Assembly (NCBI GenBank): GCA_963830935.1
Contig: CAWHOC010000005.1
Coordinates: forward strand, 38,023 to 102,022
DNA length: 64,000 nucleotides
Direction: 5' to 3'
From: an uncultured bacterium
Lineage (GTDB): Bacteria; Patescibacteriota; Minisyncoccia; UBA6257; 2-01-FULL-56-20
Of this stretch, positions 681 to 62,522 are shown one piece after another (position 1 is the first letter of the stretch; the number at the start of each line of letters is the position of its first letter). Under the pieces are notes generated by a model. That model saw only the letters and a program-made list of their open reading frames with translations, was not told where the DNA came from and did no database searches. Position numbers and translations under genes: made by a program.

Positions 681-795
681 GGACCAACGTCCCTTGAACC
701 GCGCCCTGACTTGTGCCCCCGCGAAGAATCGAACTTCGATTACAAGATCCGCAATCTTGCGTCCTATCCGTTGAACGACGAGGGCAAACGCAACC

Positions 796-16330: not shown

Positions 16331-17143
16331 TACCCAGAGAATATACGCTTTTGATCAGCTCTGTCAATTATTTTTTTAATAATTCTGATCGTCTCCTTCG
16401 GGCCGCTCGTTGCAATCGTCTGCACGCCGCTCTTTTTTGCCGCCGCATCATTGCCGCCTTTATACAGCGCGTCGCCGATGAACACCATGTCTTTTATCGG
16501 GACGTGTAAATATTTTTCGATCTGGCGCACGCCATATCCTTTATCGATCCCTGGCTTTGTGATATCAATTGTCGTGAATCCTGCGGCATGCACCTCAAGG
16601 TCCGGGAGTCGCTTCTGCAAGAGACGTGTAATCTTCATTTTAAGCGGCTTGTTTTTTTTGATCCATTCTTCTTTCAAGTGAACTCCTTTCTTCCCAAGCT
16701 GTGCAACAACATCCTGCCCAAGAAATGAATACGACATTTGGGATTTCCGATCTTCCAGGGTCTTACCATAGATCTTTTTGGGAGGAACATAATGGATCTC
16801 ATGGAACACATCCGTAACGGCTTGCCTGATCGTTCTCTTTTGGGCTGTGGACAAAAAATGGGCATACACGTTCGTCCACTTTCCGCCCTTGTAGCGGTAG
16901 AATGCAGTGGAGGTGGTGGGGAAAAGAAAAAGATTCGCAAGTAACGGCCTTGGGCACGTAAGATTCTTTACGAGCTGATTGGTAAACACTTCGTATAGAG
17001 CCGCCACCAATCACTGCAACTTTTTTCTGCTTCAACAACGCCGTCAGTGCCCGGTCCATGCTGGGCGTGAGCGGTGATTTGCTCGGCGCGAGCGTGCCGT
17101 CGAGATCAAAGACGATGAGGGATTTCTGGGAGAGTTTTGACAT
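16330..17143 (-). CDS. HAD-IIB family hydrolase (Cof/phosphomannomutase-like), frameshifted
   Basis: The N-terminal piece (16799..17182 ORF) has IVFDLDGTLAPSKSPLTPSMDRALTALLKQKKVAVIGGGS. The C-terminal piece (16330..17010, a different frame) has ...GFTTIDITKPGIDKGYGV...VFIGDALYKGGNDAA. Confidence 0.6.
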
Positions 17144-17181
17144 TCCTCTATTATAACGTATCGGGCGGGGAATCATTACCA

Positions 17182-19435
17182 ATGCATAAATCCCAAAGTG
17201 ATGTTAAAATAAATCACGTAATGGCGAAGAAAAAGAAGAAAGGGAACAAAGGGAAGAGTGGCGGGTCGAACTCCGGGAACGAGAACGTGGGAGTTGGACG
17301 AAACGGCGGCGCCTCTTCCAAGAACGCGCGCGAGCCGCGCCTCCATCCCGAGACCAAGAACAGCATCTGGGCGATCGCCTTCATCTGCGTGGCGATCATC
17401 CTCGTCCTCGCGCGGTTCGCCGAGGCAGGCCCGGCCGGAGCGCTTATCTATCAAGGCCTCGACGCTCTCGTTGGTTGGGGCTATTTGATATTGCCCGCCA
17501 CGCTCCTCTTTGCCTCGGCAGTCTTCCTTCTTTCACGCCAGAAGCGCATCCTCGCGACCACGCTGATCGGCTCCACGCTCCTTATTCTTTCCGTGCTCGG
17601 CCTCATTGAACTGCTTTCCCCCACCCATGGCGGCTGGCTCGGCCTGGTCTTCGGATCGCTCCGCATGCCGTTCGGCAACATCGCGGCGACCACGATCGAT
17701 ATCTTTATCCTTATTATCTCGGTGCTCGTAACGGCGAACGTGCCGATCAAAGTTGAATGGCCCTGGAATGATGAGACCGACGCCGACGAAGATGAGGCGG
17801 CCAGAGAAAACACGACACCACTTCTCGTGACGGGCTCGGATGGCGAAAAAACCACCACGGAAAAGGTGGCGGGTGAAAAAGACGAAAAGAAAAAAGAATC
17901 CACGGGCGACGAACCTGCCGTCGTGCACGCAAAAAACGGCGAGGAGCTTGCTAAAACAAAAAAGCCAGCAAAGGCGCCTGTGTTCGCAAATTATGTTCCG
18001 CCGCCGCTCTCGCTCCTTAAGTCCGACACAGTCAAAGCCCACCACCGGCGACCTGCTCGCGCACGCGAACATCATCAAGCGCACGCTCGACAGTTTCGGC
18101 ATCCCCGTCGAGATGGGAGAGATCAACGTCGGCCCGGCGGTGACGCGCTACACGCTGAAGCCCGCGGAGGGCGTCAAGCTCTCGCGCATCGTGGCGCTGA
18201 ATGCCGACCTTGCCCTCTCGCTCGCGGCGCACCCGATCCGCATCGAGGCGCCGATCCCGGGCAAATCGCTCGTCGGCATCGAGGTCCCGAACAAGTCCGC
18301 CGCGCTTGTGCGCCTTGGTTCGCTCATGAACTATCCGGAATTCAATCAGTCGGGATTGCTCGGCTTCGTGCTCGGCCGTGACGTTTCCGGCGAACCGATC
18401 TTCGCGAACATCGAAAAGATGCCGCACCTGCTCGTCGCCGGCGCCACCGGTTCCGGAAAATCCATTTTGGTCCACTCGCTCATCACATCGCTCCTCTATA
18501 AGAACTCGCCCGCGACGCTGCGCCTCGTGCTCATCGATCCGAAGCGGGTGGAACTTTCCATGTACGATGGCATCCCCCATTTGATAGCACCCGTCATCAC
18601 GGAGAACAAGAAGGCGCTCGGCGTGCTCAAGTGGGCGATCCAGGAAATGGACCGCCGCTACGAGATCCTTCAGCATTCCGGCAGCCGCGATCTTAAGAGC
18701 TTCAACGCAAAAAATAAACCGGAGGACCAGCTCCCCTTCATTCTGATCGGCATTGACGAGATGGCAGACCTGATGAGCTCGTTCGGCCGCGAGGTGGAGG
18801 GCGCGGTCGTGCGGCTTGCGCAGATGTCACGCGCAACCGGCATCCATCTACTACTCGCCACCCAGCGCCCGTCGGTGGAAGTGATCACGGGCCTCATCAA
18901 AGCGAACATCCCCGCACGCATCGCGCTCCAGGTGGCGTCGCAGGTGGACTCGCGTACGATCCTTGATGGCGCCGGCGCGGAAAAACTGCTCGGCCACGGC
19001 GACATGCTCTTCCTCTCCGCGGAACTTTCCAAACCAAAGCGCATCCAGGGTTCGTACATCACGGAAGAAGAGCTGAGGAGCGTCGTTGATTTCATAAAAG
19101 AGCATAACAAAGTGGAGGCACCCGAGCCGTCCTCCGATGGCGAGGAAAACATCGATAAGGCCGGCCCGATCATGCCGGCGGGATTCGATCACTTCATCAA
19201 CGCGAGCGGCGAGAGCGACGATGGAGATGGCGATGACATGTTCGACGAAGCGGTCGCCGTCGTTGCCGAAGCCAAGAAAGCATCCGCGTCATTGCTTCAG
19301 CGCCGCCTCAAAGTGGGCTACGCCCGCGCCGCGCGCCTGCTCGACCTCATGGAAGCCGCCGATCTCATCGGCCCCGGCGACGGCGCCAAGCCCCGCGACG
19401 TGAACGTGGAGAAGATAGAGCAGCGGCTGTCTTAA
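17182..19435 (+). CDS. ftsK: DNA translocase FtsK/SpoIIIE, frameshifted near 18030
   Basis: The 17137..18381 ORF carries the N-terminal transmembrane helices and a linker. The 17840..19435 ORF has the motor domain (GATGSGKS, IDEMADLM, LLATQRPSV) and the C-terminal gamma wHTH (LLQRRLKVGYARAARLLDLME). Confidence 0.85.
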
Positions 19436-19777
19436 TTAGCTATTGACATATATAGCTTTTATATAGTATAATGCAGTCTGCGAGGTAAATTATGGCACTC
19501 GAATTCAGGTGTCTCCAGGAACTTGCAGTGGCCCATCCTGAACTTGAAAGCGAACTGCTTGGGCTTCAGGAAGATGCAAAAGCAACTATCGGCGGAGACG
19601 TTGAAGGATTCGTTGAGTCCGCCCTAGGGCTTTTAATTTCCCCTGAATATACGCCGTTTGCCGAACCAGAACTTACGTTTGCACGTCCCGCAAAAAAGGC
19701 GGAGCTAGGGTGGCCAAGAATTATGACTCGGAACGATTGACGGCCGCACCACCATGACCCATTCATTGGGCAACAGG

Positions 19778-19818
19778 AAAGAACCTGTCTGCTTTAGTGG
19801 ATGGGTTCTTTTATTTTT
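19778..19818 (+). terminator. rho-independent terminator-like hairpin
   Basis: aaagaacc-tgtctgctttagtggat-ggttcttt followed by tatttttg. Confidence 0.45.
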
Positions 19819-19965
19819 GCTATCTATAGATCGCCATATGTGTCATTCGAAGTCCGGCCCGCCATGCCTGCGAAAAATTTTACCTAAATTTAATCGCCTC
19901 TATGCTAGTGTCCTCGCGTGGTGGGAGAGGCACGGTTGCGGAACTCTTCTCGCCAGTCGAGTTCA

Positions 19966-19993
19966 AGGGGTTCGACTCCCCTCTCTTCCACCA
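19966..19993 (+). other. tRNA-like 3' terminus (T-arm + acceptor 3' strand + CCA) without a recognisable tRNA body
   Basis: agggg-TTCGACT-cccct, then ctcttcc-a-CCA. The upstream 45 nt do not fold into an anticodon arm or D-arm. Confidence 0.3.
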
Positions 19994-20162
19994 CGGCGAG
20001 GAGTTATTAAAAAATTATTAAATATAATTTGACGGGATATTATTTCCTAGTAAAATAGAATTACCGACTGGCGAGGAGGAATCCGCAACGTGTTGAACAA
20101 GCGCAATAGGCCCAGCAATGGGTCTTTTGTGTTTTTTTGCCCGACGCCGTATCATCAGGGTA

Positions 20163-20915
20163 ATGCCTCCCAACGACCTTCCCTTCGAACAATTCTTCGC
20201 GGAAAAGATAAAAGAGCGCGGCGTGTCGCTCAAGAAACTGTCCGAAATAACGGGCATCGCGCCGGCGCATATCGAGAATCTTTTGCGCGGCGATTATGAG
20301 AACATGCCGTCGGCGCCGTACTTCCACGGATACATGCTCCACCTCGGCGCGGTGCTCGACTTCGACGGCGAAGAGTGGTGGGCGCGCCTCAGAAAAGAAG
20401 GTGTCGTAAAGAACTCCGGCGAGCTCGACACGATGCCGCGCAACCGGTTCATCAAACAATCCCCGCCGAAATATTTGTGGTGGATCGGCGCGGGCGTGCT
20501 CGTGCTCATCTATCTCGCGTTCCAGGCGCCGCACATTTTCGGAAAGCCGACGCTCACCGTGATCTCGCCCGACGCGAATCCGTACGTGACGACATCGAGC
20601 ACGTTCACGCTCGCCGGCACCGTGGCGGGCGCTGACTCGCTCTACCTTGTGGGCGCGAACGGCGGCCAGGAACAGATCATCATCGCCGCCGACGGCTCAT
20701 GGCAAAAGGGGGTATTGCTCGGCATCGGCCCAAATCCCTTCGAAATATTGGCGAAGAAGTTCCTGGGCGGCCAAACGACCGTCACAGAACAAATATTCTA
20801 CCAGCCCGCGGGCGGCACGGTGCCGACGTCGACGGCCAGCTCAACAACAACCGGCTCCGCCCCGAACGGCGGCACGCCAAGTACCTCCACCGCCTCCGGA
20901 ACCCCCGCTTTTTAA
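20163..20915 (+). CDS. RodZ-like protein (XRE-type HTH + single TM + C-terminal domain with a T/S-rich tail)
   Basis: LKKLSEITGIAPAHIENLLRGD (HTH), a TM segment YLWWIGAGVLVLIYLAF, and a C-terminal domain with a T/S-rich tail. Confidence 0.5.
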   Translation: MPPNDLPFEQFFAEKIKERGVSLKKLSEITGIAPAHIENLLRGDYENMPSAPYFHGYMLHLGAVLDFDGEEWWARLRKEGVVKNSGELDTMPRNRFIKQSPPKYLWWIGAGVLVLIYLAFQAPHIFGKPTLTVISPDANPYVTTSSTFTLAGTVAGADSLYLVGANGGQEQIIIAADGSWQKGVLLGIGPNPFEILAKKFLGGQTTVTEQIFYQPAGGTVPTSTASSTTTGSAPNGGTPSTSTASGTPAF

Positions 20916-31072: not shown

Positions 31073-31091
31073 AACCTTGGCGGCTCTCTTG

Positions 31092-31172
31092 TGCCCGGGA
31101 GAGGACTCGAACCTCCACGCCTTGCGGCATCAGCTCCTAAAGCTGACGTGTATGCCATTTCACCACCCGGGC
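31092..31172 (-). tRNA. tRNA-Leu (anticodon TAG), type II with long variable arm
   Basis: Reverse complement reads GCCCGGG-TG-GTGAAATGGCATACAC-G-TCAGC-TTTAGGA-GCTGA-TGCCGCAAGGCGTGG-AGG-TTCGAGT-CCTCT-CCCGGGC-A. CCA is not encoded. Confidence 0.8.
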
Positions 31173-48337: not shown

Positions 48338-48413
48338 GCAAGAAAACAAAAACAGGCATATTCGCCGAACGGTCCATCTTCGGGAGGCGAATATGCTGTT
48401 TTTGTTTTCTTGC
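48338..48413. repeat. 27-bp-stem hairpin immediately 3' of the tmRNA gene
   Basis: gcaagaaaacaaaaacaggcatattcgcc - 20-nt loop - ggcgaatatgctgtttttgttttcttgc. Located between the tmRNA 3' end and the att-like repeat, near a 25-bp perfect palindrome cgggaggggcag-c-ctgcccctcccg at about 48274-48298. Confidence 0.5.
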
Positions 48414-48415
48414 TG

Positions 48416-48732
48416 TGGAAGCGGGCGGAATCGAACCGCCGTGTAAAGATAATGCCGATGGGCCGTCTACGAGTGTAGTTTAGCTAGGCTAAGCGAAGTG
48501 ATCATATTTTCGCGCCGGGCGTATGATCGTCAACCTGGCGCTAGTCCCCTTATATAAGACCGGTATCAGTCCAAGGAACCCGGACCGGCCGATCCCGAAG
48601 GGCTAGGCGTAAGCCAGAGCGAACTTCGGAGCTGCAACTTTGGAGTTGGCAGTTATAGGTTGTGCAACAATAACGACGTTGCCAACGACTCGCAAACCCA
48701 TGGATTATCTTTATCGAAGCCAATGCGCTCCC
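48416..48732 (-). ncRNA. ssrA: tmRNA (ssrA)
   Basis: Minus-strand 5' end GGGAGCG-CATTG-GCTTCGAT (tmRNA consensus GGGGnnGnnnnGGnUUCGAC...). The 3' end GGCGG-TTCGATT-CCGCC-CGCTTCC-A is a T-arm with an acceptor that pairs with the 5' end. About 317 nt. Candidate tag ORF ...GCC AAC TCC AAA GTT GCA GCT CCG AAG TTC GCT CTG GCT TAC GCC TAG (ANSKVAAPKFALAYA*). Confidence 0.75.
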
Positions 48733-62316: not shown

Positions 62317-62450
62317 ATAAAATCATTATAACCGAATAATATGATTATTCCCTTCTGTCGGCTCACTCCTGCGATTGTGTACGAACAGGGTCGTCCCGTC
62401 CGATCTTAAGAAAGATAGCCTTTAAGCACCCTGGTCGGCCTCACTGCGTG

Positions 62451-62522
62451 TGCTCTCGACAGGAATCGAACCTGTACCACCTCCTTCGGAGGGAGATATT
62501 CTATCCATTAAACTACGAGAGC
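62451..62522 (-). tRNA. tRNA-Arg (anticodon CCG)
   Basis: Reverse complement reads GCTCTCG-TA-GTTTAATGGATAGAAT-A-TCTCC-CTCCGAA-GGAGG-TGGT-ACAGG-TTCGATT-CCTGT-CGAGAGC-A. The acceptor and T-arm are perfect. CCA is not encoded. Confidence 0.75.

What the first reader, a model, noticed from the sequence alone, without database searches (positions are those of the whole stretch)
19436..20117. 680-bp gap between ftsK and the RodZ-like gene contains a tRNA-like 3' end without a tRNA body
At 19966-19993 there is a canonical T-arm (agggg-TTCGACT-cccct) followed by a 7-nt acceptor 3' strand, a discriminator A and an encoded CCA. The 45 nt upstream cannot be folded into D or anticodon arms. A gGGAGAG stretch at about 19923 could pair as the acceptor 5' strand. 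The only ORF in the gap (19492-19740) is low-complexity and looks non-coding. A strong terminator hairpin sits at 19778-19818. Candidate explanations are a degenerate or intron-containing tRNA, a relic att site left by an integrative element (these target tRNA 3' ends), or an unrecognised structured RNA with a tRNA-like 3' domain.
Basis: seen in the sequence. Interest (0 to 1): 0.5.

Follow-up and report, generated by a model that had tools for sequence, protein, structure and literature searches.

The report
Mini-tmRNA gene with antisense partner RNA
The gap holds a 71-base RNA gene that copies only the alanine-accepting, tRNA-like end of the ribosome-rescue RNA (tmRNA), followed by a second small RNA gene built to base-pair with it; I found no prior description of this conserved two-RNA unit, which may switch a ribosome-rescue decoy on and off.

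Summary
The T-arm, 3' acceptor strand, discriminator A and CCA are real. They are not a 3' end without a body. Bases 19923-19993 (+) are a complete 71-nt RNA gene. It has a 7-bp acceptor stem with an invariant G3:U70 wobble, an invariant D-like segment (GGCACGGUUGC), an 8-bp hairpin with a 10-12-nt loop in place of an anticodon arm, and a T-arm.

ARAGORN calls no tRNA. The best Rfam match is tmRNA, where both ends of the model match and 21 nt replace 318. The one published "TLD-only" tmRNA, from mycobacteriophage DS6A, scores the same way.

The new result is a second gene at about 20063-20138 (+), with its own promoter and terminator. Its 5' 25 nt, plus a further 5-6 nt, are complementary to the D-segment, hairpin and loop of the first RNA. 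Across 21 distinct Paceibacterota (CPR) loci, 93-96% of these intermolecular pairs hold, with many compensatory changes. In other lineages the partner lies on the opposite strand, so pairing must be in trans.

Best reading: a tmRNA tRNA-like-domain mimic (alanine acceptor, probable SmpB decoy) that a dedicated antisense RNA unfolds. The function is inferred, not shown. The module is real, conserved and apparently undescribed.

The parts
19879..19906 (+). Probable promoter of the tRNA-like RNA: -35 TTTACC (19879-19884), 16-nt spacer, -10 TATGCT (19901-19906).
   Evidence: Read from the sequence. The block TTTACCTAAATTTAAT is nearly invariant in 5 loci. It is too weak for the consensus scan. Inferred, not shown.
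19912..20003 (+). Precursor helix. Leader 19912-19922 pairs with trailer 19994-20003 and extends the acceptor stem through the CCA.
   Evidence: MFE -53.1, z = -5.1. Inverted repeat of 13 nt, 92% complementary. The extension covaries: U-A 16, C-G 3, U-G 1 at the pair that includes the last base of CCA.
19923..19993 (+). Stand-alone tmRNA-type tRNA-like-domain (TLD-only) RNA, 71 nt. Acceptor 19923-29/19983-89 with G3:U70; D-like segment 19930-39; hairpin 19940-65; T-arm 19966-82; A73 at 19990; CCA 19991-93.
   Evidence: Rfam tmRNA 34.3 bits, E 5e-12, model ends only. Own model R1 scores 83.2 bits and finds no other copy in the window. Covariation. No ARAGORN tRNA.
19935..19959 (+). Arm 1: 3' part of the D-like segment, hairpin 5' strand and whole loop. 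This is the target of the partner RNA.
   Evidence: 25-nt inverted repeat with 20065-20089, 84% Watson-Crick. 93.2% paired in 21 sequences, with 13 pairs changed on both sides.
20004..20028 (+). Conserved AT-rich spacer (ATTAAA-N5-ATTAAA) between the trailer and the partner's -35. Possibly an UP element or processing site.
   Evidence: Nearly invariant columns in A2. Function not tested.
20029..20056 (+). Promoter of the partner RNA: TTGACG, 16 nt, TAAAAT.
   Evidence: Promoter scan, 10/12. TTGAC is invariant in 21 loci, and the A and T of the -10 are conserved.
20063..20138 (+). Partner small RNA (anti-TLD RNA), about 76 nt: 5' antisense arm, GUGUUG, second short antisense segment, terminator.
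   Evidence: Conserved promoter and terminator. Cofold with the TLD gives ddG -21.2 kcal/mol, against -1.9 +/- 2.1 for shuffled heads. No special pairing with the resident tmRNA. The 5' end is inferred from the -10 position.
20065..20089 (+). Arm 2: pairs in trans with arm 1 (helix H1).
   Evidence: G-U cells 45 against A-C cells 9, so pairing works for + strand RNA.
20094..20098 (+). Second antisense segment (UGAAC here). It pairs with the hairpin 3' strand 19961-19965 (helix H2). In most relatives a further base pairs with the base aligned to 19960.
   Evidence: 95.9% paired, 4 of 6 pairs changed on both sides. The alternative hairpin inside the sRNA is not above shuffles.
20099..20134 (+). 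Intrinsic terminator of the partner RNA (core stem 20108-20125, then a U run).
   Evidence: Terminator scan, RNAfold, conserved in 21 loci.
19443..19812 (+). Separate orphan cassette inside the reported gap; not part of the module. Consensus promoter 19443-19472, 82-aa ORF 19492-19740, terminator 19777-19812.
   Evidence: No DNA match to this stretch in 18 syntenic loci. In L029 the gap between ftsK and the TLD is only about 175 nt.
48413..48732 (-). Resident full-length tmRNA (tag ANSKVAAPKFALAYA). This is context: the mini RNA is an extra gene, not the cell's only tmRNA.
   Evidence: ARAGORN. Rfam 107.5 bits. Sequence.

Best explanation
The locus is a two-gene RNA module.

Gene 1 (19923-19993) makes a 71-nt RNA that has only the tRNA-like domain (TLD) of tmRNA:
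- an alanine-identity acceptor stem (G3:U70, A73, CCA);
- a T-arm;
- a reduced D segment;
- a short hairpin where tmRNA has helix H2 and the whole mRNA/pseudoknot part.
It is transcribed from its own promoter with a leader and trailer that pair.

Gene 2 (about 20063-20138) makes a small RNA. Its 5' tail pairs in trans with the loop of that hairpin. It then invades the 5' strand and the D segment (helix H1, 25 bp). A second short segment captures the displaced 3' strand (helix H2).

The two genes, the fold and the trans pairing are shown by comparative evidence. The rest is inferred:
- The free RNA is charged by AlaRS and/or bound by SmpB.
- It therefore competes with the resident tmRNA. A laboratory TLD-only RNA does this in E. 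coli, as reported in the literature.
- The partner RNA destroys the elbow and H2-like region that SmpB needs, and so switches the mimic off.

The pair would then behave like an RNA-toxin / RNA-antitoxin unit, or a regulated decoy, acting on trans-translation.

Confidence that it is a TLD-only RNA with a dedicated antisense partner is about 0.9. Confidence in the decoy/antitoxin function is about 0.35-0.4.
For: Identity:
- The Rfam tmRNA model matches both ends, with 21 nt in place of 318 (34.3 bits, E 5e-12).
- DS6A's published TLD-only gene gives the same split match (43.2 bits).
- G3:U70 is G-U in 21/21 sequences while neighbouring pairs covary. It is also present in distant lineages.
- The acceptor stem GGGAGNG resembles the resident tmRNA (GGGAGCG) more than a tRNA-Ala (GGGCCCA).

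Fold:
- 92.9% of cells paired, 11 pairs changed on both sides, 0/500 shuffles reach this.
- RNAalifold predicts the same fold independently.

Partner RNA:
- H1: 93.2% paired, 13 pairs and 76 cells changed on both sides, slid controls 29-48%.
- H2: 95.9% paired.
- The loop, which has no partner inside its own RNA, covaries with the sRNA 5' end.
- G-U 45 against A-C 9.
- The partner is on the opposite strand in L034/L059 (convergent) and L056/L065 (divergent), with its own promoter and terminator.
- ddG of dimerisation is -21.2 kcal/mol.
- The sRNA shows no affinity for the real tmRNA above shuffles and has no other target in the window.

Function, from the literature:
- A TLD-only RNA strongly inhibits tmRNA, perhaps by titrating SmpB (PMC4131195; PMC11915505).
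- SmpB binds the TLD elbow and D-loop, and the D/T-loop contacts are required (PMC3968760).

Distribution:
- The module is patchy and decaying in close relatives: absent in L002 and L008, remnants in L004 and L005, and a mutated T-loop with an intact sRNA in L006.
- Copies sit in mobile or variable contexts.
- The two clearly phage-borne copies checked (DS6A and L025, which is the same sequence as metagenome locus L047) have no detectable partner.
Against: - No expression, charging or SmpB-binding data exist.
- The score is below Rfam's gathering cut-off.
- The tmRNA motif UUCGAC...GGAC around H2 is missing, and the D segment may form a 3-bp stem. SmpB binding is therefore not assured.
- The leader/trailer helix covaries through the CCA: CCG with a compensating leader in 3 of 21 sequences. 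The RNA might act unprocessed and uncharged.
- Most members sit at one locus (ftsK to RodZ-like gene) across species with 80-96% FtsK identity. That looks like vertical inheritance of something useful rather than a selfish toxin.
- L045/L069 keep an intact TLD with no partner in the roughly 10 kb held.
- smpB is not in the window.
- Full H1 and H2 cannot both form without strain. That is my geometric reasoning, not a computation.
Confidence: 0.5

Rival explanations
1. Tagless ribosome-rescue RNA. The TLD-only RNA is a working minimal tmRNA that delivers alanine to stalled ribosomes without adding a degradation tag, as proposed for CDS-less organellar tmRNAs. The partner RNA tunes how much of it is available.
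For: The features are the same as above. Mitochondrial and about 65-bp plastid tmRNAs lack a tag frame yet are conserved together with SmpB (PMC11915505). Stable position at one chromosomal locus in many species.
Against: The genome already has a complete tmRNA. Without a resume codon and stop codon, release needs another factor. The module is lost or decayed in close relatives. The published experiment with a TLD-only RNA showed inhibition, not rescue.
Confidence: 0.2
2. Dedicated alanine carrier for a non-ribosomal reaction, such as peptidoglycan cross-bridge or lipid aminoacylation, or a sensor or sponge for AlaRS. AlaRS needs only the acceptor stem, so an RNA without an anticodon would stay out of translation.
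For: Invariant G3:U70 and A73, with CCA encoded although the window's tRNAs and tmRNA do not encode it. Neighbours ftsK and the RodZ-like gene act in the cell envelope and division.
Against: No transferase gene is linked. The context differs in L048 (efp/rpsP), L056 and L034. The invariant D-like segment and T-loop point to elbow-dependent partners such as SmpB, EF-Tu or the ribosome. This reading does not explain why an antisense RNA must unfold the body.
Confidence: 0.08
3. The small RNA is the real effector, with mRNA targets elsewhere, and the tRNA-like RNA is its sponge. Alternatively the pair serves an unrelated RNA-processing role.
For: tRNA-derived sponges for sRNAs are known in E. coli (from my own knowledge). 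The sRNA promoter is near consensus.
Against: Every conserved or covarying part of the sRNA outside its terminator is complementary to the TLD. The antisense arm drifts freely (about 65% identity) as long as it matches the TLD, which is not expected if it also had to match an mRNA. No other target in the window.
Confidence: 0.07
4. Split tmRNA. The partner RNA docks on the TLD and supplies the template (mRNA-like) part in trans, like a two-piece tmRNA.
For: Weak hit to the permuted-tmRNA model (10.7 bits, E 9.5). H1 could imitate helix H2.
Against: There is no conserved reading frame or stop between arm 2 and the terminator. Frames differ between loci, and one is only 3 codons long. In L034/L059 arm 2 runs straight into the terminator. 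The gene order is not permuted. Pairing removes the D segment rather than leaving the TLD intact.
Confidence: 0.03
5. Non-functional relic: a degenerate tRNA or tmRNA fragment, or an att-site remnant left by an integrative element. Alternatively a Y-RNA-like tRNA mimic bound by Ro/Rsr.
For: A mobile element abuts the CCA in L045/L069. The extended terminal stem recalls bacterial Y RNAs (from my own knowledge).
Against: The gene is complete and covaries in more than 20 genomes. The D segment is 95% and the T-arm 94% identical while flanks drift. The 3' 25 nt are not duplicated in the window. No Y-RNA family appears in the permissive Rfam scan. An invariant G3:U70 is not a Y-RNA feature.
Confidence: 0.04

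Closest known systems
TLD-only tmRNA of mycobacteriophage DS6A (tmRNA Website entry; Mao et al. 2009 as cited in PMC4131195 and PMC11915505)
   Same: [quoted passage not shown] It gives the same split sub-threshold match to Rfam RF00023 (43.2 against 34.3 bits). G3:U70 acceptor and T-arm. My family model finds it weakly (26.6 bits, E 0.005).
   Different: It is phage-borne, 83 nt, keeps the CGAC...GCAC motif, and has no detectable antisense partner nearby. The window's RNA is chromosomal in CPR bacteria, has a different D segment (GGCACGGUUGC), and always travels with a partner RNA gene.
Standard one-piece tmRNA (ssrA, Rfam RF00023)
   Same: Acceptor stem with G3:U70, A73, T-arm GUUCGANUC, a reduced D region, and no anticodon. 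The acceptor sequence is close to the resident tmRNA.
   Different: No resume codon, tag frame, stop codon or pseudoknots. 71 nt against 320 nt. Below the gathering score. CCA is encoded, unlike the resident tmRNA.
CDS-less organellar tmRNAs (jakobid mitochondria; about 65-bp plastid forms; PMC11915505)
   Same: Natural tmRNA derivatives reduced to the tRNA-like domain and presumed to act with SmpB.
   Different: The mitochondrial forms are two-piece and permuted (from my own knowledge). These are the only tmRNA of their compartment, and no antisense partner is reported. Here a full tmRNA coexists.
RNA-toxin / RNA-antitoxin pairs (type VIII TA: CreT/CreA, PMC10097628, PMC9458426; SdsR/RyeA from my own knowledge)
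   Same: Two adjacent small RNA genes, one proposed to harm translation and the other to neutralise it. Patchy distribution and association with mobile or defence contexts.
   Different: CreA acts through Cascade on the creT promoter, not by pairing with the toxin RNA. SdsR/RyeA are cis-antisense. Here the partner is trans-encoded and remodels a tRNA-like fold. Toxicity is not shown.
Antisense control pairs that start with a loop contact (CopA/CopT, RNAI/RNAII, hok/sok; from my own knowledge)
   Same: A single-stranded tail or loop nucleates on a hairpin loop and then invades the stem. The interface evolves fast while complementarity is kept.
   Different: Those pairs are cis-encoded and target an mRNA or a replication primer. 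Here the target is a tRNA-shaped non-coding RNA, and the genes can be tandem, convergent or divergent.

Membership tests
tmRNA (ssrA, Rfam RF00023) | Acceptor stem with G3:U70 wobble and discriminator A (alanine identity) | tested here: met
   G-U in 21/21 sequences while flanking pairs covary. Also present in distant lineages.
tmRNA (ssrA, Rfam RF00023) | tRNA-type T-arm (5 bp, 7-nt loop UUCGANU) | tested here: met
   AGGGG-UUCGACU-CCCCU aligned to the model's T-arm. 94% identity across the family.
tmRNA (ssrA, Rfam RF00023) | Reduced D-loop without a stem, carrying GG and the UUCGAC/GGAC junction with helix H2 | tested here: inconclusive
   GGCACGGUUGC is invariant and contains GG. The CGAC...GGAC positions are deleted in the alignment, and a 3-bp stem is possible.
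tmRNA (ssrA, Rfam RF00023) | mRNA-like domain with resume codon, tag frame and stop codon | tested here: not met
   21 nt stand where the model has 318. No conserved frame in the partner RNA either.
tmRNA (ssrA, Rfam RF00023) | Pseudoknots PK1-PK4 | tested here: not met
   A 71-nt RNA with a single interior hairpin.
tmRNA (ssrA, Rfam RF00023) | Score at or above Rfam's gathering cut-off (47 bits) | tested here: not met
   34.3 bits. Not listed at gathering threshold.
tmRNA (ssrA, Rfam RF00023) | Alanylation by AlaRS and binding of SmpB | not testable with these tools
   Needs biochemistry. smpB is not within the 64-kb window.
TLD-only tmRNA derivatives (DS6A type) | Both TLD halves joined by a short hairpin and nothing else | tested here: met
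   DS6A shows the same architecture.
TLD-only tmRNA derivatives (DS6A type) | Detectable sequence and structure homology to DS6A's RNA | tested here: inconclusive
   Model R1, built from this family, hits DS6A at 26.6 bits, E 0.005 with rough calibration. blastn finds nothing.
TLD-only tmRNA derivatives (DS6A type) | Inhibits trans-translation when expressed | not testable with these tools
   Reported for a similar laboratory molecule (PMC4131195).
Canonical tRNA (tRNA-Ala) | Cloverleaf with 7-nt anticodon loop and standard D-arm | tested here: not met
   No ARAGORN tRNA and no Rfam tRNA at gathering. The loop is 10-12 nt and hypervariable.
Permuted / two-piece tmRNA (RF04321) | 3' acceptor piece encoded upstream of the 5' piece; match to the permuted model | tested here: not met
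   10.7 bits, E 9.5. The 5' strand precedes the 3' strand in the gene.
RNA-RNA toxin-antitoxin (type VIII-like) | Two adjacent RNA genes, the second able to neutralise the first through a specific interaction | tested here: met
   Separate promoters and terminators, and trans complementarity with covariation.
RNA-RNA toxin-antitoxin (type VIII-like) | The first RNA is toxic alone and is rescued by the second | not testable with these tools
   Needs expression experiments.
Bacterial Y RNA (YrlA type) | Match to Y-RNA models | tested here: not met
   No Y-RNA family in the permissive Rfam scan of 19400-20200.
Bacterial Y RNA (YrlA type) | Linkage to an rsr (Ro) gene | not tested
   No search for rsr was run in the window or the related loci.

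The most novel reading that the evidence does not exclude
A new class of RNA-only toxin-antitoxin or defence module. A chromosomal or mobile-element-borne mimic of the tmRNA tRNA-like domain poisons trans-translation by capturing SmpB, AlaRS or stalled ribosomes. A short-lived antisense RNA holds it inactive by unfolding its elbow. When transcription of the antisense RNA stops, for example on phage infection or loss of the element, the stable tRNA-like RNA is released. Phages such as DS6A would carry the 'toxin' alone as a weapon.
Probability: 0.3. Interest if true: 0.9.

Novelty: new variant of a known kind. Interest (0 to 1): 0.78.

Why it matters
tmRNA-SmpB is the main ribosome-rescue system of bacteria and a drug target. 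A natural RNA that has only its tRNA-like domain was known from one phage and from organelles, and a laboratory version blocks trans-translation.

This work shows a whole family of such RNAs:
- in CPR (Paceibacterota) chromosomes;
- on a putative integrative element, next to primase-helicase and integrase genes (L034);
- on a viral contig.

In the cellular copies a dedicated small RNA is always paired with it and co-evolves with it base by base. That gives several things:
- a ready-made, sequence-defined switch for a tmRNA mimic, which can be tested with simple compensatory mutations;
- a possible first case of a tRNA-shaped RNA 'toxin' controlled by an RNA 'antitoxin';
- a new non-coding gene pair to annotate in genomes where almost no small RNAs are known;
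- an explanation for a class of 'tRNA-like fragments' that tRNA and tmRNA finders skip or mislabel (ARAGORN called some copies tRNA-Glu or tRNA-Pro).

Tried and rejected
- **tRNA and Rfam detectors.** ARAGORN on the window finds no tRNA at the site. Rfam at gathering threshold finds nothing there.
- **Recent copy of the resident tmRNA.** Rejected. The acceptor and T-arm differ, with compensatory changes.
- **5' leader or attenuator of the RodZ-like gene.** Rejected. The module is absent from relatives with the same gene order (L002, L008). Another element separates it from the gene in L003 and L006. It sits elsewhere in L048, and the partner is on the other strand in L034 and L056.
- **DNA-level inverted repeat (recombination site).** Rejected, for two reasons. 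There is a G-U/A-C asymmetry of 45 to 9. The opposite-strand partners are direct repeats at DNA level, and by my reading of the sequences all 7 differences are wobble-compatible.
- **Hairpin inside the sRNA instead of H2.** Not supported.
- **sRNA targeting the resident tmRNA.** No: -30.8 kcal/mol against shuffles at -30.6 +/- 3.3.
- **Tag-encoding frame in the sRNA.** None is conserved.
- **blastn against phage records.** No match for the module or for L025.
- **Small ORF.** No Pfam match and no homologue. Exact-protein look-up of its contig failed.
- **Mao et al. 2009.** Could not be read, so it is cited through PMC4131195.
- **Supplement search for the '9FT-COMBO-53-11' tag-less tmRNA.** Nothing found.
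- **Viral pattern scan.** It mostly returned ordinary phage tRNAs.
- **Long hairpin in L003 and L006.** No Rfam match.
Full report
**1. What is in the sequence**

- T-arm AGGGG-UUCGACU-CCCCU at 19966-19982.
- 3' acceptor strand CUCUUCC at 19983-19989.
- A at 19990 and CCA at 19991-19993.
- GGGAGAG at 19923-19929, which pairs with the 3' strand and gives a G-U wobble at position 3:70.

ARAGORN finds three tRNAs and a full tmRNA elsewhere in the window (48415-48732, minus strand) and nothing here. Rfam at gathering thresholds agrees.

A permissive Rfam scan of 19400-20200 gives one strong match: tmRNA (RF00023), 34.3 bits, E 5e-12, against a cut-off of 47 bits. Model positions 1-22 and 341-374 are aligned, and 21 nt stand in place of 318. 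So the RNA has the tRNA-like domain (TLD) of tmRNA and nothing else.

With its flanks (19905-20010) the region folds to -53.1 kcal/mol, z = -5.1. The acceptor stem continues outward, with leader GUGGU pairing with ACCAC, which includes the CCA.

**2.

Bases 20065-20089 are the reverse complement of 19935-19959 (25 nt, 84% Watson-Crick; the remaining positions include two U-G pairs).
- Upstream is a promoter-like site, TTGACG-16-TAAAAT (20029-20056).
- Downstream is a terminator (20108-20125 plus a U run).

**3. Relatives**

The RodZ-like protein recovered 18 syntenic loci, all from CPR / Paceibacterota MAGs.
- The tRNA-like gene and the downstream element are present in L001, L003, L006, L007 and L010 (cut by the contig end).
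- L004 and L005 hold remnants.
- L002 and L008 lack the module, with ftsK and the RodZ-like gene about 60 nt apart.

A pattern scan of metagenomes gave 44 loci:

| Group | Loci | Count |
|---|---|---|
| Same tandem module | L029-L031, L033, L035, L037, L040, L041, L043, L044, L046, L048, L049, L051-L055, L058, L060, L061, L071 | 22 |
| Partner on the opposite strand, upstream | L056, L065, L072 | 3 |
| Partner on the opposite strand, downstream | L034, L042, L059 | 3 |
| TLD-like gene, no partner in reach | L045, L069, L047, L062, L063, L066 | 6 |
| Gut family of a different tRNA-like RNA | L032, L036, L038, L050, L057, L064, L067, L068, L070 | 9 |
| Ordinary tRNA | L039 | 1 |

Most tandem members lie between ftsK and the RodZ-like gene. 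L048 lies between a KH-domain gene/rpsP and efp.

**4. The fold of RNA 1**

These counts come from 21 distinct modules (alignment A2).
- The acceptor stem plus five extension pairs, the interior hairpin and the T-arm are 92.9% paired.
- 11 pairs changed on both sides; 0 of 500 shuffles reach this; slid controls give 49-59%.
- G3:U70 is G-U in all 21, while pair 4:69 and pair 6:67 change freely.
- RNAalifold, run on a wider 28-sequence alignment, predicts the same fold. It adds a 3-bp stem in the invariant GGCACGGUUGC segment, which cannot be tested because it never varies.
- The D segment (95% pairwise identity) and T-arm (94%) are the conserved parts. The hairpin and loop drift at about 65%, like non-functional spacer.
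- The acceptor GGGAG(N)G resembles the resident tmRNA (GGGAGCG/CGCUUCC) rather than a tRNA-Ala from a related genome (GGGCCCA).

**5. The two RNAs pair in trans**

Helix H1 (arm 1 with arm 2, 25 pairs):
- 93.2% paired, 13 pairs and 76 cells changed on both sides, slid controls 29-48%.
- The loop positions have no partner inside RNA 1, yet they covary with the 5' end of RNA 2. One example is C-G 10, U-A 7, G-C 3, U-G 1 at a single pair.

Helix H2 (six alignment columns; UGAAC, 20094-20098, in the window, with 19961-19965):
- 95.9% paired, four of six pairs changed on both sides.
- The competing idea, that this segment pairs inside RNA 2, does no better than shuffles.

Strand and arrangement:
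- Non-Watson-Crick cells are G-U 45 times and A-C 9 times. The pairing therefore works for plus-strand RNA and not for its complement or for DNA.
- In L034/L059 the complementary arm (25 and 23 nt) is on the opposite strand downstream and is followed by its own terminator.
- In L056/L065 it is on the opposite strand upstream, with a TTGACT-16/17-TA(G/C)AAT promoter. It has the same GUGUU motif and terminator as the window's RNA 2.
- Two RNAs made from opposite strands cannot be one transcript. The interaction is therefore intermolecular, and RNA 2 is a gene.

Energetics and specificity:
- Predicted dimerisation gains 21.2 kcal/mol, against 1.9 +/- 2.1 for shuffled heads.
- RNA 2 has no more affinity for the resident tmRNA than shuffles have.
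- It has no other good site in the window.

**6. What is known**

[quoted passage not shown] - I located the DS6A gene at JN698994 28478-28560. It gives the same kind of split, sub-threshold tmRNA match (43.2 bits). My family model detects it weakly (26.6 bits).
- It has no evident antisense partner.
- Organellar tmRNAs without a tag frame are also known.
- SmpB binds the TLD elbow and the single-stranded D-loop, and D-loop/T-loop contacts are needed for SmpB binding (PMC3968760).
- Full-text searches found no description of a TLD-only RNA with an antisense partner, nor of such RNAs in CPR bacteria.

**7. Mechanism**

Shown by comparative evidence:
- two genes;
- the fold of RNA 1;
- conservation of the alanine identity pair;
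- the trans pairing, which covers the 3' part of the D segment, both strands of the hairpin and its loop.

Inferred:
- RNA 1 is processed at G19923 and at the CCA, is charged by AlaRS and/or bound by SmpB, and so competes with the full tmRNA.
- RNA 2 nucleates with its 5' tail on the 10-12-nt loop, invades the stem, and clamps the displaced strand with its second segment. This removes the elbow and H2-like structure that SmpB needs.

By my own geometric reasoning, full H1 and H2 are hard to form together. A 20-bp H1 with H2 folded back, or successive states, is more likely.

Four observations give the module the look of an RNA-toxin / RNA-antitoxin or regulated-decoy unit:
- The interface drifts freely but is always matched.
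- The module is lost or decays in close relatives.
- Other copies lie next to a primase-helicase plus integrase (L034), restriction-modification genes (L056) or a transposase (L063).
- The phage copies lack a partner.

**8. Cautions**

- There are no expression data.
- The D segment departs from the tmRNA consensus.
- The leader/trailer helix covaries even at the last base of CCA (CCG with a compensating leader in 3 of 21). An uncharged, unprocessed form cannot be excluded.
- The stable chromosomal position suggests a useful function, which favours the 'tagless rescue' rival.
- L045/L069 carry an intact RNA 1 whose downstream DNA is replaced, exactly after the CCA, by an element with a large serine recombinase. 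No partner is found in the roughly 10 kb held.

**9. The rest of the reported gap**

Bases 19443-19812 are an unrelated cassette:
- a perfect consensus promoter, an 82-codon ORF and a terminator;
- no Pfam match and no homologue among 5.8 billion proteins;
- GC3 of 0.41, against 0.78-0.82 in neighbouring genes.
In the closest relative, L029, there is no room for it: only about 175 nt separate ftsK from the TLD. It is an orphan insertion of unknown coding status.

**10. Verdict**

It is a new variant of a known kind, a TLD-only tmRNA derivative. What I found no description of is a dedicated, co-evolving antisense RNA partner, present in three gene arrangements across lineages.

Noticed in passing
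window 17137-19435: ftsK is split into two overlapping ORFs in different frames (17137-18381 and 17840-19435). This is a frameshift, due either to an assembly error or to a pseudogene.
   Followed up: no
window 19443-19812: Orphan cassette with a 12/12 consensus sigma-70 promoter, an 82-aa ORF and a terminator. No Pfam match, no homologue in 5.8 billion proteins, and GC3 0.41 against about 0.8 in neighbours. No DNA match in the 18 syntenic loci, and L029 has no room for it.
   Followed up: partly
L045 646-1842 (same sequence as L069 8922-10175): A large serine recombinase gene and an HTH gene replace the DNA exactly after the CCA of an intact TLD gene. The partner sRNA is not within the DNA held. 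The TLD gene's 3' end may serve as an insertion site.
   Followed up: partly
L003 3800-3990; L006 3790-3990: A near-perfect long hairpin of about 190 nt, with flanking inverted repeats, lies between the sRNA terminator and the RodZ-like gene. No Rfam family matches (best 21 bits).
   Followed up: partly
L032 1725-1807 and L036, L038, L050, L057, L064, L067, L068, L070 (several are human-gut contigs): An 84-nt tRNA-like RNA shares GGCACGGTTGC and the same T-arm but has A3-U70 and a 40-nt interior. ARAGORN finds none and model R1 gives 44.8 bits. It lies next to a small gene whose product begins MEKYIHVTKEV (not annotated here).
   Followed up: no
window 713-785, 31091-31172, 62450-62522, 48413-48732: None of the three tRNA genes, nor the full tmRNA gene, encodes CCA. 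The TLD-only gene is the only one in the window that does.
   Followed up: partly
L034 245-4593; L056 7016-10297; L063 7781-8752: Other TLD-only genes lie beside a Prim-Pol/AAA helicase plus tyrosine integrase (L034), beside NUDIX, GNAT and HsdM genes (L056), or beside an IS1595 transposase (L063).
   Followed up: partly
L034 246-316; L048 4151-4229: ARAGORN labels two TLD-only genes as tRNA-Glu(ttc) and tRNA-Pro(ggg), with the anticodon at an odd position. These are likely mis-annotations that could hide the family in databases.
   Followed up: no
L047 2107-2127 and 2190-2210 (L047 is the same sequence as viral contig L025): In the high-GC viral TLD-only gene, a 21-nt stretch just upstream is 81% complementary to its own T-arm. 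This is either an alternative precursor structure or chance in GC-rich DNA.
   Followed up: no
window 20007-20025: A conserved AT-rich motif, ATTAAA-N5-ATTAAA, lies between the TLD trailer and the sRNA -35 box and is nearly invariant in 21 loci. It could be an UP element, a protein site or a processing signal.
   Followed up: no
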